A stretch of 64,000 nt of DNA from Patescibacteria group bacterium (GTDB taxonomy: Bacteria > Patescibacteriota > JACPGU01): the NCBI GenBank assembly GCA_028718745.1, contig JAQULF010000001.1, positions 111,078 to 175,077 of the forward strand, read 5' to 3'. The position numbers and the translations under genes are program-made. The notes under the pieces are model-generated. The model searched no databases and was not told where the DNA came from. It worked only from the letters and a program-made list of their open reading frames with translations. Shown here piece by piece: positions 46,198 through 62,971 of the stretch; within the stretch, counting starts at the first letter, position 1; each line of letters starts with the position of its first letter.

Positions 46198-46401
46198 ATG
46201 GAGCCAATACAGGGATTAACCATCGATTCTATTATTAGCGCGCTCTTAAGCTTTGCCGTTTGGGCGGCTGGATTATTATCAATTGTCTTTATAATAGTTA
46301 GCGGGTTCTTTTTTATCACTTCGGGGGGAAACCCGGATGGGATAAAAAAAGGAAAAAGTGCCATTACTTATGCAATTATAGAGATTTGCGTAATATATTA
46401 A
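46198..46401 (+). CDS. truncated paralog of the VirB2/TrbC-like pilin 27971..28366 (lacks signal peptide)
   Basis: …FAVWAAGLLSIVFIIVSGFFFITSGGNPDGIKKGKSAITYAIIE vs …FAIWAAGLLSVVFIIIGGFQYITAGASKDGATKAKNTLTYAIIG. Confidence 0.35.
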   Translation: MEPIQGLTIDSIISALLSFAVWAAGLLSIVFIIVSGFFFITSGGNPDGIKKGKSAITYAIIEICVIY

Positions 46402-46832
46402 TTTTGAATATTCCTTTGAAGTTTTTTTAAGAAATCATTTATGGTTAAAATCTCTATATTTTGAAAACCTTTAATTTTTAACAAATGCTTATCTCCGGAA
46501 ATAATATATTTTGAGCCGCTTGCTAAAGCGCAATTGAGAAAAACATTATCAGTTGGATCGTCGCTTACAACATTAACCATATCTATATCTATATCCTGGT
46601 AAAGTTCAGAAAACTGCATTAAAAGAAATACCACATCATTTAAATCTATTTTCGCTTTTTCCAGCTGATTTTTTATTTTGGGATATTCCAAAACTCTTTT
46701 TATCTCATCCAAAATTTTAGGGGTTAGGCAAATCTCAATGCCTCCCTTTTCAATTAAATCAAAAAGAACTTTTGCATTACCTTTCCACAAAAGTCCTGAC
46801 ATAATTACATTTGTATCAAGAACTACTTTCAT
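46398..46832 (-). CDS. PIN-domain toxin (VapC-like) of a type II toxin-antitoxin pair
   Basis: MKVVLDTNVIMSGLL… (first acidic residue in DTNV), further conserved acidic residues (…SDDPTDNVFLNCA…); overlaps the upstream antitoxin-like ORF by a few nt. Confidence 0.7.
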   Translation of the reverse strand: MKVVLDTNVIMSGLLWKGNAKVLFDLIEKGGIEICLTPKILDEIKRVLEYPKIKNQLEKAKIDLNDVVFLLMQFSELYQDIDIDMVNVVSDDPTDNVFLNCALASGSKYIISGDKHLLKIKGFQNIEILTINDFLKKLQRNIQN

Positions 46833-46838
46833 ATATTT

Positions 46839-47054
46839 TTATTTTCTAGCGCTTTGAATGGCCAATTTAATATCTTTCGCGCTAATGTTTTTACCAACCT
46901 TTTTTAACTTCAGTTTTATAGATCTTAAATTTAACGGTTTTATCTTTTTCATTATCAAAGAATCTGAAGAAATAGAAATAAATACCCTAGCATTTTTCCA
47001 AGAATTAGGCAGTGGAAGGAAGTCTTTTTGAAGATTTATGCTCTTTGTTGTCAT
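46839..47054 (-). CDS. putative antitoxin partner of the PIN toxin (family unclear)
   Basis: 71-aa ORF immediately upstream and co-oriented with the PIN gene. Confidence 0.4.
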   Translation of the reverse strand: MTTKSINLQKDFLPLPNSWKNARVFISISSDSLIMKKIKPLNLRSIKLKLKKVGKNISAKDIKLAIQSARK

Positions 47055-47247
47055 GGTTTAACTTTAAGGTATGTGTAATATTTTGTCAATCAATTCTGAA
47101 AATAAAATTTTTTAACCCTTGCCTTTTTTAGAAAAACACTGTATAATAAGCCAAAATTAGTTTTCGAGGTGGTTTTCAAAACGCTTCTGAAAATAGTATC
47201 TTACCAAACTAAAACCCGGTCAACCCGGATGAAACAGGAGAAACGCC

Positions 47248-48120
47248 GTGAAAAAAATCATTGTGGTACTAGCTGTAATTCTGTTTGGCCTCTCGTTCTG
47301 TCTGAATGCGTCGGCCGTTGTTCCCAATAAAGACAAGGTCGTCGGGAAACCGGCCAATCCAAAGTTGATTGTCAAGATGGACAAAAGCAAGGCCGGCGGC
47401 AACATCGTTGTTTTTTCCGAAGATGGCGGCAAAACCTTTTACCCCATTTTCGACGGCGACGGGGTTTGCGACCAAAATGTTTTTGTCTGGTCGCCGGACG
47501 GCAAATATGTCTTCTGGATCAGCAGCGATATGAGCTGCGAAGCTCCCTTCCTCAAAGACGGGGTATGGCATCACTACGCTCGGCTGTATGATCCGGCCAA
47601 AAGAATACTATTTCTCTGGCCATCGTTGCCATCGGCTCCCAACTATCACCATACTCTGGGCGTGAACTGGGCAAAAGGGTCGGGGCATGACATTCTCATG
47701 AGGACAGCCGACAAGGGTCAGAATTCGGGAGAAACGATCGAGGCCACTGTTGATGAGTGGGAGAAAAATTCCTCTCGAGTGGATATGGATCCCTATCTCC
47801 AGTGGCTGGCTTCTTGGATCACCTCTGTTGTGAAAAAGAACCAGCTAGACGCTCTTTATTCCTTGACGAAAAACCTCCCCCCGAAGGAAGTTGACAGTAT
47901 CGCGATAATGAAAAAAGAATACAGCCCCAAAAACCTCAAAAGAATCTTCGTAAGAGAATTTGATTCTGATGAGGAAGGGGCAAGAGGGGTAGAAGTTCGC
48001 GTTAATACATTCTCAAACAACGCCTCCTATTTTTTTGAAATAGGCGTTGTTGTCAAAAATAAATTTCCGCTTCCGCCCGAAATAATTTCTTTCCGAATCG
48101 GGATGGAGGGAGGCGATTAG
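47248..48120 (+). CDS. hypothetical secreted protein (GC-richer than surroundings), GTG start
   Basis: Signal peptide MKKIIVVLAVILFGLSFCLNASA; promoter TTGCCT-17-TATAAT and RBS AGGAG upstream. Confidence 0.45.
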   Translation: MKKIIVVLAVILFGLSFCLNASAVVPNKDKVVGKPANPKLIVKMDKSKAGGNIVVFSEDGGKTFYPIFDGDGVCDQNVFVWSPDGKYVFWISSDMSCEAPFLKDGVWHHYARLYDPAKRILFLWPSLPSAPNYHHTLGVNWAKGSGHDILMRTADKGQNSGETIEATVDEWEKNSSRVDMDPYLQWLASWITSVVKKNQLDALYSLTKNLPPKEVDSIAIMKKEYSPKNLKRIFVREFDSDEEGARGVEVRVNTFSNNASYFFEIGVVVKNKFPLPPEIISFRIGMEGGD

Positions 48121-48176
48121 ACACAATCTCTGCAAATGGCAAATCAAGAAAAACGGGCTTCCCAGAAGCCCGTTTT

Positions 48177-49472
48177 TTAGCGCCCATTATTAGAAAAATG
48201 AACACAGTCAGAGCCGGTATAAAAATCACCGCTCGGGGTATTGCAGCCGTTGAAATGTATAAGTGCGTAGTTAAACAGAAAGCCCACTAGTTTTTTACTG
48301 CAATGAGCCATGTTGCATTCATAATCTCCGGAGCCGTAAATATCCACTCCTTGACCGCCATTATGGTTTGATTCTCCCGGTTTTGCGGCAATTGTTCCGC
48401 CATTCAAATAATCTTGATAAAGATTTTTTTGGTGTTCACAATTTCGGTAGGCTGACTGTATGCTGAAACATTTACCACAAGCTTGAGAAGCCTTTTTTAA
48501 AGCTTCAGCCATATTGTAGGTTATATATCTTGGTGGATCGGTTACATTTATTAGACTGGTATCAATCGGAACTAATAATAATTTATCAACCACCGCTTGG
48601 CATATTTTATAGTTATTACCATAAGTACCTACTTCTTTACAATTCTCTTCTAAATAACAACTATTATTTGGTCCGACAGATGGTATCACGGCTTTTTCAC
48701 ACTTTACATTTTCCATTCTGGTCGCTTGATTTTCAGCTCGGCTGGTAGTTTGGTCGTAGAGCCTAGAATCTCTTATCTGGTTGGCAGCTTCCGGGAAGTT
48801 CGGAGGAGATGCTTGCAGTGCCGCAATCATATCTTTAAATTTCCTAAGTCCAGCCTCTCCCAATTGAAAGCGCATTTCTACTAGAATTTGCTTAGCTGAA
48901 CCGGGAAGGGAATCATAAGTGTCTTGCCCGACTATGCTCGCAGCGCTTGCTTGAAGAGAGCTAAGATCGCTACTAAAAATAGCATCGGCTTGATCTTGAG
49001 TTATAGTGGGAGCTCCGGAACATTGAGCTTTTGCATCAGGACAGCATTTACTAATAAAGTCTGCCGGATCCATATTTGTAGCACTTGTAAAACTACTGTT
49101 GCTTCCGCCTTCCAGATTGTGTCCATAACCAATAGTACATTTTTTGTTAGTATCTTTATAGGGGTAAAGCCTCAATCCCTCATCGCTTTGCAACTGTTGT
49201 TTTAACGCGCTTGTATCTAGACTTGATCCAGCGCAGCCATAAGATCCTCCCGCTCCGCCTCCGCCAGTGTCCCCGCCCTGTCCCAACTTGCAGGCCAGAT
49301 CAAAAGCCTCCTGCGTTTTGCCAGTTAGAACTACATCTAAGGCTACACGCCAATTGCAGACTCGCTCAAAATGGCTTTTGACGACTCCCAGCATTATGAC
49401 AAACAGAAGAATAGGAATAAAAATTCCCACAATAACTATGGCAATAGCTGCAGCTTTTTGAACACTGTACAT
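48177..49472 (-). CDS. membrane-anchored bifunctional peptidoglycan hydrolase: GH24 phage-type lysozyme domain + M15 (VanY-like) D-Ala-D-Ala carboxypeptidase domain
   Basis: N-terminal TM; EGLRLYPYKDTNKKCTIGYGHNL (T4-lysozyme-like catalytic Glu + TIGYGH); Gly-rich linker; C-terminal …AAKPGESNHNGGQGVDIYG (M15 H/D zinc-ligand motif). Confidence 0.65.
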   Translation of the reverse strand: MYSVQKAAAIAIVIVGIFIPILLFVIMLGVVKSHFERVCNWRVALDVVLTGKTQEAFDLACKLGQGGDTGGGGAGGSYGCAGSSLDTSALKQQLQSDEGLRLYPYKDTNKKCTIGYGHNLEGGSNSSFTSATNMDPADFISKCCPDAKAQCSGAPTITQDQADAIFSSDLSSLQASAASIVGQDTYDSLPGSAKQILVEMRFQLGEAGLRKFKDMIAALQASPPNFPEAANQIRDSRLYDQTTSRAENQATRMENVKCEKAVIPSVGPNNSCYLEENCKEVGTYGNNYKICQAVVDKLLLVPIDTSLINVTDPPRYITYNMAEALKKASQACGKCFSIQSAYRNCEHQKNLYQDYLNGGTIAAKPGESNHNGGQGVDIYGSGDYECNMAHCSKKLVGFLFNYALIHFNGCNTPSGDFYTGSDCVHFSNNGR

Positions 49473-49482
49473 TTTGGTTTTT

Positions 49483-51084
49483 TTAGATTCCTTTTTCTAG
49501 CGCTAACTGATATACCCCATCGTTATTTAAAATATAGATTCTTCCATTTCCGGAAAGAATGGATTTGATATTTCCCGGCAGGGTATCTTTTTGGTAATTA
49601 ACCGTCTCTTTAACGCCGGAAATTTTAATTAGCATCAAACTATTATCAGAAGATGACAAAGCAACAAAGCTTTGATTATCTATCCAAGAACAATTCGCTA
49701 GATTTCCTTGCAATTTCAAATCAAGTGTTGTCGAACCTTCAGCGGCGCTAAAATCATAAAGCATAATATTGTTTCCGGATTGATAAATCAGCTTGCTGCC
49801 ATCAGGAGAGAACTGTGCGCCGGTAGATATGCCATCCTCGGTTATTTTGAGAATTGTGCGGGTTTCAAAACTATAAGCATAAACATTGACCTCCTTTGCA
49901 TTGCTGTTAGCTCCGTTTTCCATATTGGCAAAAATAGCCACTCTTTTTCCGTCTGGAGACCAGACCACATCCGGTTCAAATTCAACTGTTTTTATAGCCG
50001 GAATAATAACTTCATAATTGGATCCATCCGGATTGGCGATAGCAAAATCTTTGACCAAATCATTTTGGAAAAGATAGACAATCTTGTCTCCTTGCGGACT
50101 GAAAGAAACATTTTTGATAGGAGGCTGAAGATCTTTTGTGGTGATATTAAGCAGATCGGTTCGATCCAGATTTACCAGCCAATTGAGCTTGGTTCCATCC
50201 CCATATTTTTCAAGGTAAGGTATTTGGGCTACTTTGGACTTGGCCGAATTGGTTACCTTTACGACAAGCTGTCGAGAAGTGGGCGACCAGGCAACTTTGC
50301 TTACTTGTTCAATTGCTTCTATCATAGTCGTTTCTTTCTGATTGGCAAAATTGTATTCCTTGAGATTGTATCCCGCATCAGTTTTGTCAAAATAGGAGAG
50401 TGAATCAATCTCTTTATTATAATTCGCAAAAAATACTTCTTTATCAATAACCTTTTCTATCTTTTGATAAGCTGAAAATTGAAATGACAGGGTATAATTA
50501 TTATTGCCCGGAGAAACACTGATGGTTTTTTGCAGATCGGCAAAACCTTCTTTTCGAGCTGTAACAATATGATCTCCTTTGGAGAGGATCAGCTGGTAGG
50601 GAGAAGTAATGTTTTTATATTCCATGCCGTCGACAAGAAGACTGAATCCCGCTTGATTGGCGGAAACAGTAACGGCGATTTTTTTATTGATAGAATAAAA
50701 ATAATAAGCAGTGCCGCCGACCAGAACCAATAGAAATACAGCTACGGCTGCTGCGATTAGGTTTCTCTTAAGTTTAGGGTTAGCGGCTTTTCTAATCATA
50801 ACCGCCTTGGCTTTTTCTTCCTTCTGAAAAGCCTCTTTGATAGGGGAACTGGTTACCGACTCTTTCGGCAACTCAACCTTATTGTTGCCAAAATAGAAAT
50901 CTTCTTTTTTTGCTTCTTGAGACGGAATAGTGTCTTGGTTCACCTTTGGGAAACCTGTCGAAAGACTATCCTTGCCCCCTGTGGATAAGTCTGGATCTGG
51001 TAATTTGATTTCTGGTGAAATGGGTATATTTCGACTGGATTCTTCTTCGCTTGACCCTTGCGGGCTTGTATTTGTGTCTTCCAC
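49483..51084 (-). CDS. membrane-anchored PEGA-domain + TolB-like beta-propeller protein
   Basis: TM helix; PEGA-like LLVDGMEYKNITSPYQLILSKGDHIVTARKEGF; repeated WSPDGK / FSPDGS / FSPQGD blades. Confidence 0.55.
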   Translation of the reverse strand: MEDTNTSPQGSSEEESSRNIPISPEIKLPDPDLSTGGKDSLSTGFPKVNQDTIPSQEAKKEDFYFGNNKVELPKESVTSSPIKEAFQKEEKAKAVMIRKAANPKLKRNLIAAAVAVFLLVLVGGTAYYFYSINKKIAVTVSANQAGFSLLVDGMEYKNITSPYQLILSKGDHIVTARKEGFADLQKTISVSPGNNNYTLSFQFSAYQKIEKVIDKEVFFANYNKEIDSLSYFDKTDAGYNLKEYNFANQKETTMIEAIEQVSKVAWSPTSRQLVVKVTNSAKSKVAQIPYLEKYGDGTKLNWLVNLDRTDLLNITTKDLQPPIKNVSFSPQGDKIVYLFQNDLVKDFAIANPDGSNYEVIIPAIKTVEFEPDVVWSPDGKRVAIFANMENGANSNAKEVNVYAYSFETRTILKITEDGISTGAQFSPDGSKLIYQSGNNIMLYDFSAAEGSTTLDLKLQGNLANCSWIDNQSFVALSSSDNSLMLIKISGVKETVNYQKDTLPGNIKSILSGNGRIYILNNDGVYQLALEKGI

Positions 51085-51228
51085 TTTTCGCCTCCTTTTT
51101 TGTTTTAGAATATGAAAAAACCGCTAATCAAAGCTATTTTTTCAGATTATATTTAATTTTTATTTTTTAATCTCGTTCTTTGGGTGATTATAACACATTT
51201 TTTATAAATCAAGTATCATTTGAAATTC

Positions 51229-51257
51229 TTGACAAAGTCGCTTTTCTGTGATACAAT
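51229..51257 (+). promoter_or_regulatory. sigma70-like promoter TTGACA-17-TACAAT for the GGDEF gene
   Basis: cTTGACAaagtcgcttttctgtgaTACAATg. Confidence 0.5.
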
Positions 51258-51300
51258 GTCCTAATTTCAAAAAATCAAAAAAGATTTCTTGAAAGAAAAT

Positions 51301-51332: not shown

Positions 51333-51343
51333 ATAAAACAAAA

Positions 51344-52210
51344 ATGAAAAACACAACACTAAACAATTTAATCTCCGATACCGTAGCCAGTAAAAGGGTT
51401 CAGGAATTTGTTGGTAAAACCGCACTATCTTTGAACGGTAAAAGAAGTCTAACCAGACTATCGGATATGGCGGTTTTGAAACCCGAAGACATCTTGTCAT
51501 TATTTCACCAAAAGAAATTGAATGAAAAAGATACCATGTTCTGGCTAGGTGTGCTGGCCGTTAATGCCGAGGAAAAAGCCAAAAAGCACGAACAGTTGGC
51601 GACTATGGATGAATTAACCCAGGTCTATAATCGCAGGGCTTTTATCGATAATCTTTCCAAAGAACTTTCTCGCTTGAGATCAAAACATCTGCAGATTCAA
51701 AAACTGCTTGAGGAACCGATGACTTTGACTTTGATGATTGTGGATATCGACTTCTTCAAAAAAGTTAACGACAAATACGGCCATCTTGCCGGCGACCAAG
51801 CTTTAAGAGGCGTAGCTGATGTTTTGAAGAAACAAGTTAGAGATACTGATTCAGTGTTTAGATATGGCGGTGAGGAATTTACTATTGTTATGCCGGACAC
51901 TCCTCGTGAAGAAGCGCTGGATGCGGCCAAAAGAATTAATCGAGCAATTGCAAAAGCCAACATCTTAATTAATCAAAGAAAGAAGAAATATATTAAAGCA
52001 ACTGTCAGTGTCGGTGTTACTTCAATCGATGGTCACCAACTAGCTGATATGAAGGTAACCGATATGATGATTCCAAAAATGATTGCACAAGCCGACGAAG
52101 CGCTCTATTTTGCCAAAGGCAACGGCAGAAATCAAGTAACGATGTGGACAAAGAAAATTAGAAACGCTTTGAAGAACGGAAAAATAGTTAAAAAGTCACG
52201 CTACGCGTGA
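51344..52210 (+). CDS. GGDEF-domain diguanylate cyclase
   Basis: LTQVYNRRAF…MIVDIDFFKKVNDKYGHLAGDQALR…FRYGGEEFTIVMPDT (GGEEF active site). Confidence 0.85.
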   Translation: MKNTTLNNLISDTVASKRVQEFVGKTALSLNGKRSLTRLSDMAVLKPEDILSLFHQKKLNEKDTMFWLGVLAVNAEEKAKKHEQLATMDELTQVYNRRAFIDNLSKELSRLRSKHLQIQKLLEEPMTLTLMIVDIDFFKKVNDKYGHLAGDQALRGVADVLKKQVRDTDSVFRYGGEEFTIVMPDTPREEALDAAKRINRAIAKANILINQRKKKYIKATVSVGVTSIDGHQLADMKVTDMMIPKMIAQADEALYFAKGNGRNQVTMWTKKIRNALKNGKIVKKSRYA

Positions 52211-52246
52211 TCAGGCGAAGCCCGAAAATCATGTAAGTTGTAATAG

Positions 52247-53032: not shown

Positions 53033-53045
53033 CATTAATGAAAGA

Positions 53046-56800: not shown

Positions 56801-57127
56801 ACGCCGGACAGAGTGTTCCACTTGACAGGGGAAGGCAAAGAGTTGTTAAGAGCAATAGGACCTGGATTGAGAGAACAGCTTAACAGAATGAATGTGAATG
56901 CGGTTGAAAACCTTACTGCTAACGGCATAATACAAGAATTGGAAGTCGATCCACAGATAGACAAACAATTTTTACAAGTGCTGGTAGCCAAAAGGCTGGG
57001 GTATACTAAGGACGATAAAGAGCAACTCAAGGCAATAAAAGTAGATAAGTATGTAGAACATTTGAATGGGGGTGGAGACTGGCAGTCTTACAAGGCTACT
57101 ATAGAAGCATCACTACCTGCTGCGTAA
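53840..57127 (+). CDS. large polytopic membrane protein, VirB6/TrbL-like (N-terminal ~450-aa Cys-rich ectodomain, central ~6-8 TM helices, C-terminal cytoplasmic coiled-coil)
   Basis: Signal anchor; TM block LLTVGIIDN…LLLALISIFITTL…IIATIILVNYSLSIANLVIAIM…LFLVAFLLVIIYLMLVLWV…LLAMFAPVPYLANAIP…GPLVAALLYAASIAI…MVLVGIILYLAATMPL; architecture typical of Gram-positive/CPR VirB6 homologues; upstream of PrgI-like and VirB4 genes. Confidence 0.5.
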   Translation: MFIKHKYKTKKFIFIFLATILAVQIGGSFFGTFLNKALATGTTGSWVNLSIPSGATEWDVSSDLQLACSNISGLDTNIYPDQDSANGYYQQGTSHATYSVRCSWDWATNHEYAGKNIVLYKLRNKATDKDMIDVQPIAGALTGECTLSNLNTKIECRFEDSSRWVVDVKADKPFKASDYQLMAEFGATGGAPLSQIDDAKLIESQQYFNAIQTITNRVLDNGYAEKVNDYDIANLHRTNFINALKDSKTCKDAAKYVSTSPPTEGDWLAYLTNPKVLFQNIADFFTNAQDINAACTQYISQVNGNVYIVNAAWAATSNCAAGGATTADALKTCVAQDATYQKAIELNTARQKGAEQAVIDQSKTGPKLSDAGGCGAALDDPNASVDISQLIEPFPAAIMCFVEKYVLNGIQYVSKNWVDQNFSSLLTVGIIDNPVAQSVARVFINFINSLFLLLALISIFITTLKIDIPSMDLKSWQLKRMIPTIIATIILVNYSLSIANLVIAIMDSLVGYFGAGGGNFFSFGTDPNSLMWSVGGIPWGLLAFRILFLVAFLLVIIYLMLVLWVRKLALVLLAMFAPVPYLANAIPISSIKELTGSWWKNFMNWAFMGPLVAALLYAASIAITSATETKLGIGNLPINFGAGEIIPVSPSGFWAGISLTNMVLVGIILYLAATMPLKLGGAVMSAVQKATTGRAGKLAGTIAKGTAGFYASKAARGLGIPSIEEIKKGFAENRRVQLAKASEKGAKKREKAFGGVSAMTDIFENYWNMKGIGKLPFSTARQKKAEADLLAKNRKVRELKDSGANADEIVGATKEADAARMRLMNIRPTNYNTRVERLGRESEELKKIASINRSEELNSLLDKAIMEKNQTRASAIMRQMASNADENEYLNRHNFSSGREGMQAFTREVLIGKLGMNRQQALELEMDISNTAEKNGHMQASKTVYMEDGILDHATATQHQDAIRAETIKMDSQKQAINFNRLAYGYETPDRVFHLTGEGKELLRAIGPGLREQLNRMNVNAVENLTANGIIQELEVDPQIDKQFLQVLVAKRLGYTKDDKEQLKAIKVDKYVEHLNGGGDWQSYKATIEASLPAA

Positions 57128-57142
57128 ATTAAAGAAAAAGCC

Positions 57143-57886
57143 ATGGACAATAAAATTACAATTGAACAATTGAAAAAACCGGAGTTTTTGGAATCAGCCA
57201 AAAAAAGGTTGGACGATATTTTGAATTATGATTCCGGTAAGGAAGCTCGGGACTTTGCTTATGATTTAGAAAAAGTATTAAAGGAAAATCCTGATTTTGA
57301 GAAAGCATCTCCCGACCTTTATAATCAATATCAAGATCTTATTGTCAAATTAAAATTAGTGGGCTTGCAGTTTTTGAAGGATGAAGAAATAGTTCCGGTT
57401 TTGAAAGATCATTTTTCCATTATGCTTTTATCTTTCCCGCCGGTTACCAATGACATTGTCGATAAATTAAGAGCCCACCTAGTCGGCATTCCTGTTTACG
57501 AAGAAAGAGATACTCTAAAAGGAGAGATTATGAAAATTTTAGTGGAAAGTCAAGAAACTATAACTACCAATAACTTGCGAGATGAAAATGGGATTGGGCA
57601 GCCCCCCACTATTGCTAATTGGATAAAGGATTATTTGCGAGAGACACAAGGACCGGAAGATGAATCTTTGAAATTGATTATGTATTTGACCAATGCTCGC
57701 GGTAAAATGAATTTATCCGATAAAGAAGCCGACGCATTAAAATCTTTTTTGTCGCTTTATGAATTTTTGAGGCATTCTTCTCTGACGCCGGAAGGATTGG
57801 AAGAAAGCGTACTTTTCAGCGAAGACGGCCTCTTGAAGATTTTGAGGCAAGGACAGGTGGAGGTAATAGGACCAGCAGGAGGATAG
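57143..57886 (+). CDS. hypothetical cytoplasmic protein
   Basis: 247-aa ORF with RBS; no recognisable motif. Confidence 0.4.
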   Translation: MDNKITIEQLKKPEFLESAKKRLDDILNYDSGKEARDFAYDLEKVLKENPDFEKASPDLYNQYQDLIVKLKLVGLQFLKDEEIVPVLKDHFSIMLLSFPPVTNDIVDKLRAHLVGIPVYEERDTLKGEIMKILVESQETITTNNLRDENGIGQPPTIANWIKDYLRETQGPEDESLKLIMYLTNARGKMNLSDKEADALKSFLSLYEFLRHSSLTPEGLEESVLFSEDGLLKILRQGQVEVIGPAGG

Positions 57887-57938
57887 CTTCGTTAGCTTTT
57901 AGCTCCATTCAAGGGTAAATCAAAGATTAAAAATCAAA

Positions 57939-58313
57939 ATGGAAAATGACAAAGAAAAATTTAAAAAGGAATTCAAAAAAAGATTATATAACTTCGTACT
58001 TCGTTTAATAAATTATATCAATAAACTTACAAGGTCGCAGTCGAATGATGTTATAGGAAAACAACTATTAAGAAGCGGCACAAGTATATTAGCAAACTTT
58101 ATAGAAGCAAATTCAGCCAGCAGTAAAAAGGATTTTATAAATTTTTTTAATCACAGTTTAAAGTCTGCAAATGAATCTAAGGTTTGGCTAACATTATTTA
58201 GGGATACAAATAACTCAGGAAAAGAAGAAAATGAGTTTCTAATCAATGAACTTTGTGAAATAGCTAATATTTTAGCTTCAAGCATATTAACCTTAAAGGG
58301 GAAAAAGAAGTAA
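57939..58313 (+). CDS. four-helix-bundle protein (TIGR02436-like / Avd-like family), third member in this window
   Basis: …LLRSGTSILANFIEANSASSKKDFINFFNHSLKSANESKVWLTL… matches the four-helix-bundle family signature. Confidence 0.6.
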   Translation: MENDKEKFKKEFKKRLYNFVLRLINYINKLTRSQSNDVIGKQLLRSGTSILANFIEANSASSKKDFINFFNHSLKSANESKVWLTLFRDTNNSGKEENEFLINELCEIANILASSILTLKGKKK

Positions 58314-58371
58314 TTTTAGATTTTATATATTTCATTTTGATTTTTGATATTTACATTTTAATTTAACTCAT

Positions 58372-59013
58372 ATGCCAGATCAATATAAGATCCCACAAAA
58401 CATCGATGTTGAAGATAAAATTCTTGGCCCCTTTACCTTGAAGCAGTTTTTATATATTATGGGGGGAGGGATAATTATTTATGTTCTTTTTAACATTTTT
58501 GCCAAGACTAACCTCATTCTTTTTCTGGTAATTTCTATTCCGATTGCGATTGCCGTACTAATGCTGGTTTTTGTAAAAGTAAACGAAAGACCTTTTCTGG
58601 ATTTTTTCTTTTACTTCATCGCTTATCTGCAAGATCCGAAAGAAAAAAAGTGGATCAAGTCTACTAAAGTTAAAGAGTTCAAAATTACTGCCAAAATTTC
58701 CGAAGCGGAAGAAGCCAAGCAAAAAGAAATAGCTGATCTTTCCCGAAGAGGAATAGTTCGATCACAATTGCAGCAAATGGCTATAGTTTTGGATTCGCGT
58801 GGCTGGAGTAGAGAATCGCTCGATCAGGAATTAAAGGGAAGAGTGGCCTCTTCGGTAGAAGAAAAATCTGTTGTCAGGCAAAAGTTTGCCGAAGAAGAAA
58901 ATCTGGCCGATATGTTTAGCGATATCGAAGGCGCGGTAACTACATTAAAATCAGGGGTTCAAGAAGAAAGCGCCAGCAATTTAGCGGAGAGATTGAAGAT
59001 ACTTTTGGAATAA
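58372..59013 (+). CDS. PrgI/VirB3-like small membrane protein of the T4SS-like module
   Basis: DVEDKILGPFTLKQFLYIMGGGIIIYVLF followed by a second TM helix: the PrgI-family pattern; located just upstream of virB4. Confidence 0.5.
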   Translation: MPDQYKIPQNIDVEDKILGPFTLKQFLYIMGGGIIIYVLFNIFAKTNLILFLVISIPIAIAVLMLVFVKVNERPFLDFFFYFIAYLQDPKEKKWIKSTKVKEFKITAKISEAEEAKQKEIADLSRRGIVRSQLQQMAIVLDSRGWSRESLDQELKGRVASSVEEKSVVRQKFAEEENLADMFSDIEGAVTTLKSGVQEESASNLAERLKILLE

Positions 59014-59119
59014 AAAATAAAAAATTAAAACATTAAGGTAAATCCCACGCTCGTGTACTCGCTCTGGATGAAATGCTCGTTATATTTTTTACATTAATGT
59101 TCGCATTTCAAAAACAAAA

Positions 59120-59845
59120 ATGGCAGACAAAGACACAAAAAAACCAACCGGTTCCACCGTCGAATCCGCTCCTGCGAAAAGAAACTCAACGCAGTCTTAT
59201 CTTGATATTGACCATTTTGAGAGCGGCATTCTGATTATGAAAGATGGAAGCATGAGAATGATTCTGTCCACTTCCGCGATCAATTTCGAATTAAAAGCCG
59301 AGATAGAAAGAAATTCAATTATTTATGCCTATCAAAACTTTTTGAATTCTTTGGAATTTCCCATCCAAATTATTGTTCAGTCCAGGAAACTGGATTTGGA
59401 TGAATATCTGGAAACTTTGAAAAAGAAAATTACCGAAACGACCAACGAACTTCTCAAAGTTCAGATCTCCGACTATGTTGATTTTGTGCAGGGTGTGATT
59501 AATGTTGCCAATATTATGCAAAAGAGATTTTATGTTGTAGTCCCGCATTACCCAAGTAATTTCAAAAAAATCGGAGGTTTAGCCCAGATTTTTTCAGGTA
59601 GCCAGGCGGGCGTAGAAATATCAGATATGGAAGTAGAGACAAAATATCTGATGCAAAAAACCGAAACGGTAGCGTCGGGATTGCAAAGCATCGGAATTCG
59701 CGCCTTGCAGCTAGACACCCAGGAGTTAATTGAGCTTTTCTATGGAGCTTATAATCCCGATCAATCCACTCGTCAGAAATTAATTGATATTTCACAATTA
59801 GAATCGGAAATAATTGAGGCAGCACCGGAAGAAATGGGGATATAG
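59120..59845 (+). CDS. hypothetical T4SS-associated protein resembling the non-ATPase N-terminal domain of VirB4/TraC
   Basis: …LDIDHFESGILIMKDGSMRMILSTSAINFELKAEIERNSIIYAYQNFLNSLEFPIQIIVQSR…FYVVVPHY… parallels the N-terminal domain of the downstream VirB4. Confidence 0.35.
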   Translation: MADKDTKKPTGSTVESAPAKRNSTQSYLDIDHFESGILIMKDGSMRMILSTSAINFELKAEIERNSIIYAYQNFLNSLEFPIQIIVQSRKLDLDEYLETLKKKITETTNELLKVQISDYVDFVQGVINVANIMQKRFYVVVPHYPSNFKKIGGLAQIFSGSQAGVEISDMEVETKYLMQKTETVASGLQSIGIRALQLDTQELIELFYGAYNPDQSTRQKLIDISQLESEIIEAAPEEMGI

Positions 59846-59920
59846 AACAGGAATATATGAATAAAGGATTAAATGAATAGAAATTCTAATCATTTAATCA
59901 TATAATCATTTAATCATCAC
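59846..59920. repeat. AT-rich ~70-bp hairpin repeat, near-identical to 11404-11476
   Basis: gaatatatgaataaaggattaaatgaatagaaattctaatcatttaatcatataatcatttaatcatcac. Confidence 0.6.
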
Positions 59921-59958
59921 ACCCTTAGTATTTTAGAAACAAAAAAATAAACATAAAA

Positions 59959-62034
59959 ATGCCAGATCCACAAGACAAAAAACTAGATAATATCCAGCCC
60001 CCCAAAGGTTCCTACTTTGATTTGACTAACAAAGATGCGGTTCTTCAGCCGGATAAGGCTAAGGATTTGGGCGCTATTACTTCCGGTTTTGGTGTTAAGA
60101 AGGAAATAGGATCAACACCACTAAAAGTAGAGACGAATGGCCATTCGTCTCTACAGGAGAAACCAAAAGAGACTAAATCATCCGGAGGTTTCTTTTCCTT
60201 CGGACCAAAGATGACTAAAGAAGAATTGGAAAAACAAAAAGCCGAGGAAAGAAAAAAATCAGAAGCCATTAAAAGAGAAGAAGAGGCTAAAAAAACTTAT
60301 GAAATGGGGTTGGCTTCTATTCGCGACCTGATCGCCCCTTCTTCAGTACAAATTACGCCAAATTATCTAGTTTTAAACGATCGCTTTGTTCGCACTCTTT
60401 TTATTTTCAATTACCCCCGCTTTATTTTTCCAAACTGGTTATCGCCGCTGATTAATATGGATATGACTCTCGATATCGGCATGTTTATTTATCCCAAGGA
60501 AAATAAAGGCGTTCTCGACACTTTAAGAAAAAGATCGGGGCAAGTGGAGTCGGCTCTCAATATAGAAGCGCAAAAAGGACTGGTTCGAAATCCGGAATTG
60601 GAAACCGCTTTGCAAGACATTGAGGAATTAAGAGAAAGATTGGCCAGAGGAGAAGAGAGATTATTTCAGTTGTCTCTATATATAACTCTTCAAGCTAAGG
60701 ATCTGGACGAGCTGGATCTAGCTACTAAAAAAGTAGAATCAACCCTTGGAGGTTCTTTGATTTATACCAAAAGAGCCGGATTTCAGATGGATCAAGGCTT
60801 TCGCTCCACTCTTCCTTTGGGATCTGACTTTTTGGATATTAGAAGAAATATGAACACAGGTTCGCTTTCCACTACTTTCCCATTTACCTCAATGGATTTA
60901 ACTTCCAATCAGGGAATTATGTACGGTATCAATCGCCATAATAATGGCTTGATTATTTTTGATCGATTTGAATTGGAAAACTATAATTCAGTTGTTTTTG
61001 CTAAGGCCGGTGCCGGCAAGTCATACGCGGTAAAATTAGAAATTTTACGCTATATGATGTTTGGTACAGATATTATAGTGATTGATCCGGAAAATGAATA
61101 TAAAAATCTTTGCAAAGTGGTTGGCGGGTCATATCTATCCATGAGCTTATCTTCAGATGATAGAATCAATCCTTTTGACTTACCGCCGCTTCCCGACGAT
61201 GCTACGCTCGATATGGGTGAAGATAATTTAAGAAGCACTATTATTACTCAAAAGGGTTTAATGAATTTACTTTTGGGGAAACTTGATCCGGAAGAAGATT
61301 CTTTGATTGAAAAGGCATTGCTTAAAGCTTATGAATTGAAAGGGATTACCAACGATCCAGCTACCCAAAAGGCCAACTTTCCCTTGATGGCCGATGTTTA
61401 CAATGCATTATCGGGAATGCCGAACAGCAATTCATTGATGAAAAGAATGGAAAAATATGTAACCGGAACTTTTTCCAGCATATTTAATAAGCCAACTAAC
61501 ATTGATTTAGATAAGGGCTTTGTTGTTTTTAACATTCGCGATCTGGAAACCTCTTTTCGTCCAATTGCCATGTATATGGTGCTGGATTTTATTTGGTCAA
61601 AGATAAGAAAAGAGTTGCGAAAAAGAATGCTTATCGTCGATGAGGCGTGGCTTATGATGGAATATGAAGATGCGGCCAAATTCATCTATTCAATTGCCAA
61701 AAGAGCTAGAAAGTATTATCTAGGACTAACTACTATAACGCAGGATGTGGAAGACTTTTTATCCTCAAAATACGGCCGCGCTATCGTAACCAACTCTTCA
61801 TTGCAATTGCTTCTCAAACAATCTCCGGCCTCAATTGAATCAGTGGGTAAAACTTTTAATCTAACTCAAGGAGAGCGAGCCTTGCTTCTGGAATCCGGTG
61901 TGGGTGAGGGACTTTTCTTTGCCGGTGTCAATCATGTAGCTATCAAAGTTATCGCTTCTTATACGGAGGATCAGATCGTGACTACCTCTCCAAAGCAGAT
62001 TCAGGAGCTTGAAAAAGCGCAGGGAGAGGTATAG
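59959..62034 (+). CDS. virB4: VirB4/TraC/PrgJ-family type IV secretion ATPase with a ~120-aa low-complexity N-terminal extension
   Basis: Walker A FAKAGAGKSYAVKL, Walker B MLIVDEAWLMM, conserved VIDPENEY and N-terminal VirB4 domain (…IAPSSVQITPNYLVLNDRFVRTLFIFNYPRFIFPNWLSPLINMDMTLDI…). Confidence 0.85.
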   Translation: MPDPQDKKLDNIQPPKGSYFDLTNKDAVLQPDKAKDLGAITSGFGVKKEIGSTPLKVETNGHSSLQEKPKETKSSGGFFSFGPKMTKEELEKQKAEERKKSEAIKREEEAKKTYEMGLASIRDLIAPSSVQITPNYLVLNDRFVRTLFIFNYPRFIFPNWLSPLINMDMTLDIGMFIYPKENKGVLDTLRKRSGQVESALNIEAQKGLVRNPELETALQDIEELRERLARGEERLFQLSLYITLQAKDLDELDLATKKVESTLGGSLIYTKRAGFQMDQGFRSTLPLGSDFLDIRRNMNTGSLSTTFPFTSMDLTSNQGIMYGINRHNNGLIIFDRFELENYNSVVFAKAGAGKSYAVKLEILRYMMFGTDIIVIDPENEYKNLCKVVGGSYLSMSLSSDDRINPFDLPPLPDDATLDMGEDNLRSTIITQKGLMNLLLGKLDPEEDSLIEKALLKAYELKGITNDPATQKANFPLMADVYNALSGMPNSNSLMKRMEKYVTGTFSSIFNKPTNIDLDKGFVVFNIRDLETSFRPIAMYMVLDFIWSKIRKELRKRMLIVDEAWLMMEYEDAAKFIYSIAKRARKYYLGLTTITQDVEDFLSSKYGRAIVTNSSLQLLLKQSPASIESVGKTFNLTQGERALLLESGVGEGLFFAGVNHVAIKVIASYTEDQIVTTSPKQIQELEKAQGEV

Positions 62035-62071
62035 AAAAGTATTTTTTGCTCTCATTTTATTTATATGGTAA

Positions 62072-62145
62072 AATAAGTGGTAAGTGGTAAGCATGTAAGT
62101 AGTAAGTAATCCCAAAACTTACAACCTACAACTTACAACTTAATT
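62072..62145 (+). repeat. long imperfect hairpin of (GTAAGT)n versus (ACTTAC)n downstream of virB4
   Basis: ggtaagtggtaagcatgtaagtagtaagtaatcccaaaacttacaacctacaacttacaacttaa. Confidence 0.45.
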
Positions 62146-62164
62146 CTTACTACTAATTTTTTAT

Positions 62165-62971
62165 ATGGCAGATCAAGATCTTGTAGATTATATAAAAGAG
62201 AATAAGGCTAAGTATGGTGTTGATACTTTGCGTAAAGGGCTTTTGGCCCAGGGGATTAGCTATAAAGAATTCAAGGAAGCAATGGAGATGGTTGAACAGG
62301 AAGAAGACGAAAAGATAGCCGGATTTCTCACCGATGCACCGGAAGTAAGAGAAGAAACCATTATTGTGAAAGAATATATTGGTAGAGGAGCTCGAGGAGC
62401 CAAGGAATATCAAAAAAAAGCGGGGGAAGTTATCGGCAATGTTTCTACGGCACTCGGAGTTGGTGAAAAAGATAAGACTCTCTATTTGGATATTATAAAA
62501 TATGGAGCTATTGCTTTTGTGTTTTTTAATATCATTACTACAGTTTTTAAGTATTTCGGGGGTCGTATAGTTTATCCTAAAGTAGCCGCTTCACTGGGTG
62601 TTTTTGGACATCTGGCTCTTCCTGATGTTTTGATGATAAAAATCGAGCTTTGGCCGCTTACTTTATCGGTGTTGTGGAGTGCTGTTTTGGGGGGAGTTCT
62701 TACATTCTTATTTGTGAAATATATAGCTCGTTTTTGGCCATTCTCTATTTGGTTGAAATTTCAGCAAAAGCTTTTTTATTTCTATATTATTTTTGAATTT
62801 ATTTTTGGTATTTTTATAAACGGCCTGATCTCGGCGATCTCGGGCATTTATCTTTTGGGCTATCTGATAGTTTTGGTTGGAATAGTAATAGCCGCTTATC
62901 TATCCAGTAATTATTTAGCGAATGTTTTGGAAACCAAACACGAGGACGCTATCAAAAGATTAGTTAGATAA
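62165..62971 (+). CDS. hypothetical membrane protein (cytoplasmic N-terminal domain + 4-5 TM helices)
   Basis: 268-aa ORF; hydrophobic C-terminal half. Confidence 0.4.
   Translation: MADQDLVDYIKENKAKYGVDTLRKGLLAQGISYKEFKEAMEMVEQEEDEKIAGFLTDAPEVREETIIVKEYIGRGARGAKEYQKKAGEVIGNVSTALGVGEKDKTLYLDIIKYGAIAFVFFNIITTVFKYFGGRIVYPKVAASLGVFGHLALPDVLMIKIELWPLTLSVLWSAVLGGVLTFLFVKYIARFWPFSIWLKFQQKLFYFYIIFEFIFGIFINGLISAISGIYLLGYLIVLVGIVIAAYLSSNYLANVLETKHEDAIKRLVR

What the first reader, a model, noticed from the sequence alone, without database searches (positions are those of the whole stretch)
46198..62971. Conjugation/T4SS-like envelope module with pilin-like proteins, a lysozyme+M15 hydrolase, a TolB-like protein, VirB6-like, PrgI-like and VirB4, flanked by three TA pairs and a 2231-aa giant surface protein
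Within ~25 kb are the following. A giant TM-anchored ectoprotein (38431..45126). A truncated VirB2/TrbC-like pilin paralog (46198) of the intact pilin-like gene at 27971. A PIN/antitoxin pair. A membrane-anchored GH24-lysozyme + M15 peptidase fusion (48177..49472), a plausible VirB1/PrgK-type wall-breaching enzyme. A PEGA/TolB-like beta-propeller. A GGDEF cyclase. MNT/HepT and BrnT/BrnA pairs. A 1095-aa VirB6/TrbL-like polytopic protein. A PrgI/VirB3-like protein. A protein mimicking the VirB4 N-domain. A full VirB4 ATPase. No VirD4, relaxase or VirB8/B9/B10 analogues are visible in the window, so this is either a minimal Gram-positive-type/CPR-type apparatus or the remainder lies outside the window. 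The giant protein adjacent to such a system could be an adhesin or effector for episymbiotic host contact. Its function is entirely unassigned.
Basis: partly seen in the sequence, partly recalled or inferred. Interest (0 to 1): 0.6.

Follow-up and report, generated by a model that had tools for sequence, protein, structure and literature searches.

The report
Patescibacteria chromosomal type IV secretion locus
This is the origin-proximal, relaxase-less type IV secretion gene cluster that ultrasmall Patescibacteria (CPR) carry and that is essential for epibiotic growth in the one species tested; it is a new member of an already described system, with a few accessory genes (a giant membrane protein, a PEGA protein) that published surveys have not treated as parts of it.

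Summary

The window is the oriC region (dnaA-dnaN-DciA) of a Patescibacteria MAG. The cluster matches the Patescibacteria T4SS described by Wang 2023 and Quinonero-Coronel 2025: MPF-FATA-type VirB4, TrsD, PrgI, VirB6, pilin array, no relaxase or coupling protein, next to dnaA. Relatives show Mur ligase and PolA after the cluster, so nothing is missing downstream.

Synteny in about 40 related loci separates parts from passengers. The giant protein, PEGA protein, hydrolase and 247-aa protein recur with VirB4. The TA pairs, the Bro-N gene and the Avd-like gene are lineage-specific insertions.

Verdict: new member of a known kind, with modest interest. Substrate and mechanism remain unknown field-wide.

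The parts
27063..27839 (+). 258-aa protein with two tandem VirB2-like T4SS_pilin domains (four TM helices), next to Hsp20 and SBP as in relatives
   Evidence: PF18895, 2 stretches, E 1.1e-8; TM scan; pilin genes at the same place in L007 and L008
27971..28366 (+). Intact VirB2-like pilin: signal peptide plus two TM helices, 131 aa
   Evidence: PF18895, E 1.1e-11, full-length match; 62% identical to the L008 pilin
38431..45126 (-). Giant 2231-aa membrane protein. It has a cytoplasmic N-terminus, TM 112-130, a ~1970-aa ectodomain with ~30-aa 'LGLPxGS' repeats, a second hydrophobic segment at 2101-2119 and a conserved C-terminal module. It is a recurrent neighbour of the T4SS genes.
   Evidence: No Pfam or PDB hit. 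Homologues of 35-60% identity sit at the same position in L005, L007, L008 and L011. More distant 1000-1800-aa homologues lie after VirB4-PEGA in L009, L017, L071 and others.
46198..46401 (+). Pilin gene remnant (67 aa). It lacks the signal peptide and the end of TM2, and is wedged between a phage-type Bro-N gene and a PIN toxin gene.
   Evidence: PF18895, E 1.6e-7, model positions 4-61 of 71; tblastn 52% identity to residues 53-110 of the intact pilin, no upstream continuation
47248..48120 (+). 290-aa exported protein of unknown fold, conserved beside the hydrolase in close relatives
   Evidence: N-terminal signal/TM; 49% identity in L005 and 38% in L008 at the same position; no Pfam, PHROG or PDB hit
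48177..49472 (-). Membrane-anchored bifunctional cell-wall hydrolase: GH24 lysozyme plus M15/VanY peptidase. Functional VirB1 analogue.
   Evidence: Phage_lysozyme and VanY, both above GA. Catalytic motifs DEG...YKD...TIGYGH and SNHNGGQGVD...CVHF are readable in the sequence. Orthologues keep the anchor and swap domains: +Amidase_2, SLT + an NlpC/P60-like segment judged by eye only, SLT+M23+C39_2.
49483..51084 (-). TM-anchored PEGA domain plus PD40-type beta-propeller ectoprotein
   Evidence: PEGA and PD40 above GA. 54-56% identity in L005 and L008. A PEGA protein lies downstream of VirB4 in 20 of 30 metagenome loci. Its counterpart in Se, PEGA protein SEML1_0005, is essential.
51344..52210 (+). 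Soluble GGDEF diguanylate cyclase with intact GGEEF and RxxD I-site; candidate clade-specific regulator
   Evidence: PF00990, E 1.6e-40. 84-85% identity at the same position in L005, L006 and L008, 64% in L007, also in L014, L051 and L065. Absent from distant clusters.
53840..57127 (+). Extended VirB6-like protein: signal peptide, ~400-aa fast-evolving ectodomain, 5-6 TM core (about 430-690), ~330-aa all-helical cytoplasmic C-domain
57143..57886 (+). 247-aa acidic cytoplasmic protein. Member of a weakly conserved family found between VirB6-like and PrgI genes in distant clusters.
   Evidence: No Pfam, NCBIfam or PHROG hit. phmmer E 1e-5 to 4e-3 over about 170 aa to ORFs at the same position in L064, L056, L083, L080, L072 and L075/76. 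Absent in L005 and L051.
58372..59013 (+). PrgI/VirB3-like two-TM hairpin protein with a cytoplasmic tail
   Evidence: PF12666, E 8.8e-11, above GA; TM 26-44 and 48-66; upstream of VirB4 in 27 of 32 loci
59120..59845 (+). TrsD-like protein, i.e. a detached VirB4 N-terminal domain
   Evidence: NF041427 TrsD, E 1.8e-7 (below the curated cut-off); matches VirB4 models only in their N-terminal part. Precomputed PF26593 TraC-like. Fused to VirB4 in L071. Present in 27 of 32 loci.
59959..62034 (+). VirB4 ATPase of MPF-FATA (CD1110) type, with intact Walker A (GAGKS) and Walker B (LIVDEAW)
   Evidence: NF045971, 367.9 bits against a cut-off of 325; P-loop_TraG E 9e-29; sequence
62165..62971 (+). 268-aa protein (small helical N-domain plus 5 TM) conserved directly after VirB4 in the close clade only
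   Evidence: 85% identity in L005/L006, 40% in L001, also in L051 and L065; no family hit

Best explanation
The region is the chromosomal, origin-flanking type IV secretion system typical of Patescibacteria (CPR). It descends from the conjugation machinery of monoderm bacteria (MPF-FATA class) but has lost DNA-processing functions.

Shown here:
- The membrane translocon genes form one co-oriented block: an extended VirB6-like channel protein, a 247-aa accessory protein, PrgI/VirB3, a TrsD-like detached VirB4 N-domain and a VirB4 ATPase, followed by a clade-specific 5-TM protein.
- A second, divergently oriented block encodes the envelope part: a membrane-anchored muramidase+peptidase (VirB1 analogue), a TM-anchored PEGA/beta-propeller protein, a small exported protein and a giant membrane-anchored ectoprotein.
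- VirB2-like pilins lie on the other side of oriC.

Inferred mechanism:
- VirB4 is docked to the membrane through PrgI and TrsD.
- It energises assembly of a VirB6-based channel and a VirB2-like pilus or conduit.
- The hydrolase opens the epibiont's own wall.
- The PEGA and giant proteins scaffold or extend the apparatus through the wall towards the host cell.
- The system moves an unknown non-DNA cargo (proteins out, or host-derived molecules in), as proposed for Southlakia epibionticum (Se).

The TA pairs, the Bro-N gene, the Avd-like gene and the pilin remnant are lineage-specific insertions and debris, not parts of the machine. The GGDEF cyclase is a clade-fixed neighbour and a possible regulator.
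For: Component identities:
- VirB4, TrsD, PrgI and pilins by profile searches.
- PrgI, TrsD and VirB4 tile the mycoplasma VirB3-VirB4 fusion model collinearly, at positions 15-117, 111-233 and 292-891.

Chromosomal context:
- dnaA, dnaN, DciA, YidC and S20 lie between the pilins and the rest of the cluster.

Synteny:
- The order Hsp20-SBP-pilins-...-dnaA-dnaN-DciA-giant-(small)-hydrolase-PEGA-GGDEF-VirB6L-PrgI-TrsD-VirB4-268aa-MurLigase-PolA is found in L005/L006, L007 and L008.
- A collinear version, VirB6L-PrgI-TrsD-VirB4-hydrolase-PEGA-giant-pilin, is found in L009, L017 and L071.
- Census: PrgI 27/32, TrsD 27/32, VirB6L 18/32 upstream of VirB4; PEGA 20/30 and giant family 10/30 downstream.

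Absence of DNA-processing genes:
- No ORF in the window can be a relaxase or coupling protein. All ORFs of 400 aa or more are assigned or are cluster proteins.
- Relatives have housekeeping genes downstream.

Literature:
- The same gene set, the lack of a relaxase and the dnaA proximity are described for 2,400 Patescibacteria genomes (PMC12102498).
- The Se cluster SEML1_0004-0019 (PEGA, lysozyme, 1113-aa M15-fold protein, VirB4, TrsD-like, PrgI, two large VirB6-like proteins, pilin array, Hsp20 next door) is almost entirely essential by Tn-seq (PMC10633639).

Insertions:
- The TA pairs, Bro-N and the IVP gene have no counterparts at these positions in relatives.
- Bro-N matches phage family phrog_15286, E 3.7e-86.
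- L011 has a different TA pair beside its giant gene.
Against: - No experiment or expression data exist for this organism.
- The substrate and direction of transport are unknown even in the model species.
- No VirB8-like (NTF2-fold) component was identified.
- The roles of the giant and PEGA proteins rest on gene neighbourhood only. The giant gave no fold or family match.
- The VirB4 was not placed in a phylogeny, so membership of the published 'Patescibacteria clade' is inferred from its nearest relatives.
- Only 64 kb of a 209-kb contig was visible, so a distant T4CP cannot be excluded. The 2025 survey finds such genes far from virB4 in many genomes.
Confidence: 0.85

Rival explanations
1. 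It is a (possibly decaying) integrative conjugative element or integrated plasmid whose relaxase, coupling protein and integrase lie outside the window. The TA pairs and Bro-N gene would be its cargo or addiction modules.
For: VirB4 scores best against the conjugative CD1110 family. TA pairs, a phage-type Bro-N gene and a pilin pseudogene are interspersed.
Against: - The cluster sits in the same place, between dnaN/DciA and Mur ligase/PolA, in several genomes that differ by 15-60% in protein sequence.
- GC content is unremarkable.
- There is no integrase, relaxase or T4CP in 64 kb, or in 10 kb downstream in relatives.
- The mobile-looking genes are exactly the ones missing from relatives.
- The 2025 survey finds relaxases in only 103 of 3,035 genomes.
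Confidence: 0.04
2. It is a DNA (or nucleotide) import machine analogous to the Helicobacter ComB or archaeal Ced systems, which also use VirB4-type ATPases and VirB6-like channels without a relaxase.
For: - No relaxase or T4CP is present.
- There are weak NCBIfam hits of VirB4 to CedB (3.9e-7) and CedD (1.2e-5).
- Patescibacteria cannot make nucleotides (PMC10633639).
- The review proposes uptake of host molecules through the pilus (PMC12857230).
Against: - In Se the comEC knockout is viable while the T4SS is essential, so transformation-type DNA uptake is not the essential role.
- The CedB/CedD hits are far below their cut-offs and reflect the shared ATPase fold.
- No ComB- or Ced-specific subunit is present.
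Confidence: 0.15
3. The giant protein and the PEGA/propeller protein are not T4SS parts. They would be independent surface or cell-wall proteins that merely share the origin-proximal neighbourhood.
For: - They are on the opposite strand from the VirB6-VirB4 block and separated from it by GGDEF and TA genes in the window.
- Neither has any detectable T4SS domain.
- The census detects the giant family in only about a third of loci.
Against: - In distant relatives they are co-oriented and contiguous with VirB4: VirB4-hydrolase-PEGA-giant-pilin.
- A PEGA protein follows VirB4 in 20 of 30 loci.
- The Se counterparts SEML1_0005 and SEML1_0007 are essential and lie within or adjacent to the annotated T4SS cluster.
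- The census is a lower bound, made with local HMMs from a few sequences.
Confidence: 0.2

Closest known systems
T4SS of Southlakia epibionticum ML1 (SEML1_0004/0006-0019; Wang et al. 2023, PMC10633639)
   Same: - Location next to dnaA/dnaN.
- VirB4, a TrsD-like protein, PrgI, and a ~1090-aa VirB6-like protein with a helical-repeat C-domain.
- A lysozyme-type hydrolase and a PEGA protein.
- A large membrane protein beside the hydrolase.
- A VirB2-like pilin array adjacent to an Hsp20 gene.
- No relaxase or coupling protein in the cluster.
   Different: - Gene order is rearranged: the envelope block is inverted, and the pilins are separated from the rest by oriC.
- One VirB6-like gene instead of two.
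- No NTF2/VirB8-like gene was recognised.
- Pilins number 2 genes (3 domains) plus one remnant, against 6.
- The large protein is twice as long (2231 against 1113 aa). Any LAS-type motif is N-proximal and unconfirmed, whereas SEML1_0007 has a C-terminal DD-peptidase fold.
- A GGDEF cyclase, a 268-aa TM protein and several TA and phage-type insertions are added.
Patescibacteria-clade T4SS as surveyed by Quinonero-Coronel et al. 2025 (PMC12102498)
   Same: MPF-FATA-type VirB4; TrsD the most frequent partner; PrgI-type VirB3; VirB6; PF18895 pilins in arrays; no relaxase; dnaA/dnaN/rnpA/rpmH neighbourhood.
   Different: That survey searched with known T4SS profiles. It does not mention PEGA proteins, giant proteins, GGDEF or the 247-aa family. 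Here these are recurrent neighbours.
Monoderm conjugative T4SSs (pCF10 Prg, ICEBs1 Con, CTn2 CD1110 type)
   Same: VirB4, VirB3 (PrgI/ConD), VirB6 (PrgH/ConG), and a membrane-anchored two-domain wall hydrolase (PrgK/CwlT type). No outer-membrane core.
   Different: No relaxase, coupling protein or VirB8-like protein found. It has VirB2-like pilins, which monoderm systems lack. It is fixed in the chromosome rather than on a mobile element.
R388 TrwI / VirB6 (PDB 7o3v)
   Different: 13% identity. The protein adds a ~400-aa N-terminal ectodomain and a ~330-aa cytoplasmic helical domain (an 'extended VirB6'). There is no VirB5 partner in the cluster.

Membership tests
Patescibacteria-type (MPF-FATA-derived) T4SS | VirB4 ATPase of MPF-FATA type with intact Walker motifs | tested here: met
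   NF045971 conju_CD1110, 367.9 bits against a cut-off of 325; GAGKS and LIVDEAW read in the sequence
Patescibacteria-type (MPF-FATA-derived) T4SS | VirB4 falls in the monophyletic Patescibacteria clade of the VirB4 tree | not tested
   No reference tree was available. The nearest relatives (49-91% identity) come from Patescibacteria/Saccharibacteria MAGs or unlabelled metagenome contigs. The nearest non-CPR hit is 28% identical (Mageeibacillus).
Patescibacteria-type (MPF-FATA-derived) T4SS | TrsD-like and PrgI/VirB3-like genes immediately upstream of virB4 | tested here: met
   the same order in 27 of 32 related loci
Patescibacteria-type (MPF-FATA-derived) T4SS | VirB2-like pilins (PF18895), often several | tested here: met
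   Three pilin domains at 27063-28366 plus a remnant at 46198-46401. They lie 18-30 kb from virB4, across oriC, as in L007 and L008.
Patescibacteria-type (MPF-FATA-derived) T4SS | No relaxase and no coupling protein in the cluster; chromosomal, near dnaA | tested here: met
   All large ORFs in the window are assigned. Downstream in relatives lie Mur ligase, PolA and HolA. dnaA is at 35300-36658. The rest of the 209-kb contig was not visible.
Patescibacteria-type (MPF-FATA-derived) T4SS | Required for epibiotic growth | not testable with these tools
   Known only for S. epibionticum (PMC10633639)
Conjugative T4SS / ICE | Relaxase, T4CP (VirD4/TcpA), oriT, and integration or replication functions linked to the MPF genes | tested here: not met
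   None in the 64-kb window or in the flanks of relatives. The cluster is syntenic with housekeeping genes across genomes.
VirB6/TrbL family (for 53840-57127) | Direct match to the TrbL/VirB6 sequence profile | tested here: not met
   No Pfam or NCBIfam hit, even at E of 10 or below. The PDB profile search gave only coiled-coil noise. Indirect support: 14 of 47 homologues hit PF04610, and P0003 carries a precomputed PF19590 hit.
VirB6/TrbL family (for 53840-57127) | Polytopic core (5 or more TM helices) with the VirB6 fold, encoded next to VirB3/VirB4 | tested here: met
LAS / M15 (Hedgehog-DD-peptidase fold) for the giant protein | SxHxxGxAxD zinc motif plus a downstream His ligand, and the LAS fold | tested here: inconclusive
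   - The motif SPHFSGQAMD is invariant in the 8 close homologues. It is absent in distant family members.
- No conserved downstream His.
- Pfam gives only sub-threshold hits to Extensin-like_C and HH_signal.
- hhalign against the hydrolases' M15 domains matches 16 columns, probability 39%.
- The AF2 region has pLDDT below 50.
TolB (for 49483-51084) | Match to the TolB equivalog; Tol-Pal context | tested here: not met
   TIGR02800, 34.7 bits against a cut-off of 343. No Tol-Pal genes. Only PD40 propeller repeats are shared.

The most novel reading that the evidence does not exclude
The giant protein family (with an N-terminal module that is a separate gene in distant relatives) and the PEGA protein would be the missing extracellular half of the Patescibacteria T4SS. 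They would form a wall-spanning or host-contacting scaffold that replaces the VirB8/9/10 or adhesin functions of other systems. In this reading, the fast-evolving, length-variable middle region of the giant protein and the ectodomain of the extended VirB6 determine host range. A clade-fixed GGDEF cyclase would put the apparatus under c-di-GMP control.
Probability: 0.3. Interest if true: 0.6.

Novelty: new member of a known kind. Interest (0 to 1): 0.35.

Why it matters
The Patescibacteria T4SS is currently the only T4SS known to be essential for the bacterium that carries it, and nobody knows what it transports. This locus adds no new principle. It does give a clean comparative picture of which genes travel with VirB4 (the giant membrane protein, the PEGA protein, a domain-shuffling wall hydrolase, a 247-aa cytoplasmic protein) and which are passengers (TA modules, phage-type genes).

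Cytoplasmic and membrane parts are 74-85% identical between relatives. Surface-exposed parts are only 39-55% identical. This pattern is what would be expected if the exposed parts engage a changing host surface. These observations could guide structural work (cryo-ET, pull-downs) in cultivable Saccharibacteria.

Tried and rejected
VirB6-like protein:
- Direct Pfam and NCBIfam assignment of the 1095-aa protein failed, including at E of 10 or below on the TM segment and on three close homologues.
- A profile of 65 homologues against PDB sequences gave only coiled-coil noise.
- The afdb50 fold library was unavailable.

Giant protein:
- No Pfam hit.
- An 8-sequence profile against PDB gave nothing.
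- The AF2 model of residues 131-700 was mediocre (pLDDT 63; the LAS-like region below 50), and Foldseek returned only generic helical bundles.
- The LAS/M15 idea remains a motif-level lead.

Other proteins:
- 290-aa exported protein: the profile against PDB gave nothing.
- A regex scan for c-di-GMP receptors (MshEN, PilZ) in the module proteins found nothing.

Other searches:
- The promoter scan was not above shuffles and gave no operon boundaries.
- The rest of the source contig could not be read: exact look-ups returned only 3-5 kb Logan contigs.
- The genome-contig scan with the single VirB4 protein gave only one close relative.

Considered and rejected:
- An ICE remnant, because of the conserved chromosomal synteny.
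- A TolB orthologue, because the score is far below the cut-off.
- The 57939-58313 gene as PrgI; it is Avd/IVP-like.

Full report
**1. What is in the sequence**

The window is 64 kb with 32-48% GC and no compositional break. It carries dnaA (35300-36658), dnaN (36965-38101), DciA, YidC and S20. It is therefore the replication-origin region of a chromosome. Exact-match look-ups name the source as an NCBI MAG, 'Patescibacteria group bacterium' (locus tags PHU42_00865 and PHU42_00925), on a 209-kb contig.

Profile searches confirm the following:
- **VirB4**, 59959-62034. NF045971 conju_CD1110 scores 367.9 bits, above the 325-bit cut-off. P-loop_TraG and CagE_TrbE_VirB also match.
- **TrsD-like protein**, 59120-59845. 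It matches VirB4 models only in their N-terminal part.
- **PrgI/VirB3**, 58372-59013. PF12666 scores above the gathering threshold (GA), and the protein has a two-TM hairpin.
- **T4SS_pilin (PF18895)** at 27971-28366, twice within the single ORF 27063-27839, and in the 67-aa ORF 46198-46401.
- **Hydrolase**, 48177-49472. It is membrane-anchored and combines GH24 lysozyme with a VanY/M15 domain. The catalytic motifs of both domains are readable.
- **PEGA + PD40-propeller protein**, 49483-51084, TM-anchored.
- **GGDEF cyclase**, 51344-52210, with GGEEF and an RxxD I-site.
- **Toxin-antitoxin genes**: a PIN toxin, an MNT/HepT pair and a CopG-type antitoxin with a weak BrnT.

Three points needed correction:
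- 57939-58313 is a 23S_rRNA_IVP (Avd-like) protein, not a T4SS part.
- The PIN partner has no family hit.
- 'TolB-like' reflects only shared propeller repeats (34.7 bits against a cut-off of 343).

**2. The VirB6 claim**

The 1095-aa protein has no direct family hit, even at permissive thresholds.

An exhaustive HMMER search found 1557 relatives. They share the TM core (about 430-720) and a C-terminal domain (about 790-1095). The N-terminal ~400-aa ectodomain occurs only in the five closest relatives.

Evidence for VirB6 identity comes from relatives and from structure:
- Of 47 relatives scanned, 14 match Pfam TrbL/VirB6. No other family recurs.
- One close homologue carries a precomputed TrbL_3 hit.
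- An AlphaFold model built from this alignment is confident in the core (pLDDT 80-94) and in the C-domain (85-98, all-helical).
- Foldseek independently ranks TrwI first, but at E 0.05.

I accept it as an 'extended VirB6'. It has a signal peptide, a variable ectodomain, a 5-6 TM core and a cytoplasmic helical domain. This is the same architecture as SEML1_0011 and SEML1_0013 of Southlakia epibionticum (Se).

**3. Synteny separates parts from passengers**

*Close relatives.* Loci fetched through homologues of the VirB6-like and giant proteins show one conserved order:

Hsp20 - SBP - pilins (2-3) - S20 - YidC - YidD - RnpA - L34 - dnaA - dnaN - DciA - GIANT - 1-3 small genes - wall hydrolase - PEGA(+propeller) - GGDEF - VirB6-like - PrgI - TrsD - VirB4 - 268-aa TM protein - Mur ligase - PolA - HolA.

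The window ends inside the Mur ligase gene. The 'missing remainder' is therefore not downstream.

*Passengers.* The following have no counterpart at these positions in relatives:
- Bro-N (45170-46003)
- the pilin fragment
- the PIN pair
- MNT/HepT
- BrnT/CopG
- the IVP gene

Bro-N is a full-length match to phage family phrog_15286 and has a 45%-identical paralogue at 16236-17078. A closer relative (L011, giant protein 60% identical) carries a different HEPN/MNT pair beside its giant gene. The TA modules are thus interchangeable insertions. The pilin fragment lacks both ends and abuts the PIN gene, so it is a remnant.

*Distant relatives.* A scan of metagenome contigs with a VirB4 alignment gave 80 loci at 48-91% identity. 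A local census counted loci with at least 8 kb on the relevant side:

| Gene | Position relative to VirB4 | Loci |
|---|---|---|
| PrgI | upstream | 27 of 32 |
| TrsD | upstream | 27 of 32 |
| VirB6-like | upstream | 18 of 32 |
| PEGA protein | downstream | 20 of 30 |
| PEGA protein | upstream, inverted | 5 of 32 |
| Giant family | downstream | 10 of 30 |
| Giant family | upstream, inverted | 3 of 32 |

All these counts are lower bounds. In the distant loci the order is collinear: VirB6L-(247-aa-like)-PrgI-TrsD-VirB4-(hydrolase)-PEGA-GIANT-pilin. Examples are L009, L017, L071, L056 and L064.

Three conclusions follow:
- The giant protein and the PEGA protein belong to the cluster.
- The window's clade has simply inverted the envelope block.
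- The 247-aa protein, which first looked like an insertion, has weak homologues at the same position in at least seven distant loci. These give E 1e-5 to 4e-3 over about 170 aa and share the motif PT(I/V)xNW(I/L)xDY.

In L071, TrsD and VirB4 form one 875-aa ORF. PrgI, TrsD and VirB4 tile the mycoplasma VirB3-VirB4 fusion model at positions 15-117, 111-233 and 292-891. Both observations fit TrsD being a detached VirB4 N-domain.

**4. The wall hydrolase**

Orthologues keep the N-terminal TM anchor and juxtamembrane segment but exchange catalytic domains:

| Locus | Domains |
|---|---|
| window, L005 | GH24 + M15 |
| L008 | GH24 + M15 + Amidase_2 |
| L007 | SLT + a segment that looks NlpC/P60-like by eye (CSGFV motif); Pfam reports only SLT |
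| L009 | SLT + M23 + C39_2 |

This glycosidase-plus-peptidase design is that of the VirB1 analogues of monoderm T4SSs (CwlT, PrgK, TraG of pIP501; established knowledge).

**5. The giant protein**

The 2231-aa protein has these features:
- a K/R-rich cytoplasmic N-terminus
- a TM helix at 112-130
- a ~1970-aa ectodomain with scattered ~30-aa 'hGxxxhExxLGLPxGS' repeats
- a second hydrophobic segment at 2101-2119
- a strongly conserved C-terminal ~110 aa

Only nine homologues were found by the indexed search.

Comparison with the 1000-1800-aa relatives shows a conserved N-module and a conserved C-module around a variable, expanded middle (profile positions 180-670 and 2004-2399). The cytoplasmic-plus-TM head is a separate upstream gene in L017, L042, L044, L052 and L071.

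An invariant SxHFxGQAxD motif (residues 341-350) resembles the zinc motif of LAS/M15 peptidases. Se SEML1_0007, a 1113-aa essential protein, has a Hedgehog/DD-peptidase fold. The resemblance did not hold up under testing:
- The motif is confined to the close clade.
- No downstream His ligand is conserved.
- Pfam hits to the same clan are sub-threshold.
- hhalign matches only 16 columns.
- The model is unreliable in that region.

This membership test is inconclusive. No fold or family could be assigned.

**6. Evolutionary rates**

Identities against L005 and L008:

| Protein | Identity |
|---|---|
| VirB4 | 85% |
| TrsD | 82% |
| 268-aa protein | 85% |
| GGDEF | 84-85% |
| PrgI | 74-84% |
| PEGA/propeller | 54-56% |
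| Hydrolase | 27-53% |
| 290-aa protein | 38-49% |
| VirB6-like | ~51%, alignable only over the core |
| Giant | 38-39% |

Exposed parts diverge much faster than cytoplasmic and membrane parts.

**7. Comparison with what is known**

The cluster matches the Patescibacteria T4SS described by Quinonero-Coronel et al. 2025. That survey reports a VirB4 clade nested in MPF-FATA, TrsD as the most frequent partner, PrgI, VirB6 and PF18895 pilin arrays. It also reports relaxases in only 103 of 3,035 genomes and a position close to dnaA, dnaN, rnpA and rpmH.

It also matches the Se cluster of Wang et al. 2023, which is almost entirely essential by Tn-seq. A 2025 review calls these systems unique among monoderms, both for being required for growth and for their potential pili. 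It speculates that the pilus is a conduit for signals or for uptake from the host.

The 2025 survey does not mention PEGA, giant proteins or GGDEF. Their recurrent linkage is the only modest addition made here.

**8. Mechanism**

*Shown:* gene identities, folds, order and conservation.

*Inferred from the homologous machines:*
- VirB4, tethered through PrgI and TrsD, powers a VirB6-based channel and polymerisation of VirB2-like pilins.
- The anchored hydrolase opens the epibiont's own wall.
- The PEGA and giant proteins scaffold or extend the structure outward.

There is no relaxase or T4CP, and in Se comEC is dispensable. The cargo is therefore probably not conjugative DNA or transforming DNA. 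Protein export or import of host molecules both remain open. The GGDEF cyclase may regulate the system in this clade, but no PilZ or MshEN motif was found in the module proteins.

**9. Verdict**

- The system is already known, so this is a new member of a known kind.
- Interest is 0.35. That score rests mainly on the accessory-gene picture and on the unassigned giant protein.

Noticed in passing
window 31754-34604 (- strand): A diversity-generating retroelement lies between rnpA and dnaA. The reverse transcriptase is at 31754-32938 (RVT_1). The template repeat is at 33199-33274 and the variable repeat at 33658-33733, 87% identical. Every mismatch is at a T on the + strand, which is an A on the coding strand. 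The variable repeat sits at the C-terminal end of a 322-aa ORF (33636-34604) that has no family hit. Relatives L007, L008 and L009 have rpmH directly next to dnaA, so this is an insertion.
   Followed up: partly
window 28743-29132 (-) and 57939-58313 (+): Two 23S_rRNA_IVP (Avd-like four-helix bundle) genes. One is inserted between the 247-aa gene and PrgI inside the T4SS block. Neither is adjacent to the DGR.
   Followed up: no
window 11401-11475 and 59843-59917: A 75-nt intergenic repeat, 85% identical, with an internal hairpin (RNA fold z-score -3.0). One copy lies between TrsD and VirB4. The other lies between an RNase J-like beta-CASP gene and a secreted subtilase. Its function is unknown; it could be a terminator or attenuator, or a small dispersed repeat.
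   Followed up: partly
window 15285-18099: A second Bro-N gene (16236-17078, 45% identical to the one at 45170-46003) sits between an AAA/ClpB-like fragment (15285-16199) and a 320-aa ORF with no Pfam hit (17137-18099). This may be a split clp gene interrupted by a mobile Bro-N gene. The Bro-N gene at 45170-46003 matches phage family phrog_15286; the copy at 16236-17078 was not scanned.
   Followed up: no
window 27063-27839: A single 258-aa ORF carries two complete T4SS_pilin domains (four TM helices), i.e. a tandem 'di-pilin'. L007 has a 211-aa pilin gene at the same place with only a weak T4SS_pilin hit; its domain number was not examined.
   Followed up: no
L071 9143-11767: TrsD and VirB4 are encoded as one 875-aa ORF in a metagenome relative. 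This is a natural fusion supporting TrsD as the detached VirB4 N-domain. A sequencing error was not excluded.
   Followed up: no
window 21374-24907 (-): A 1177-aa secreted protein combines Amidase_2, three Ig-like (N_BRCA1_IG) domains and SpoIID. It is another large cell-wall-active surface protein. A 71-nt internal repeat lies at 22583 and 22982.
   Followed up: no
window 34845-34928: Three tandem 21-nt repeats (AGATGTTAAAGAGCTGAAAAC-like) lie about 400 nt upstream of dnaA, inside a short ORF region. Whether they are origin-related or coding repeats was not determined.
   Followed up: no
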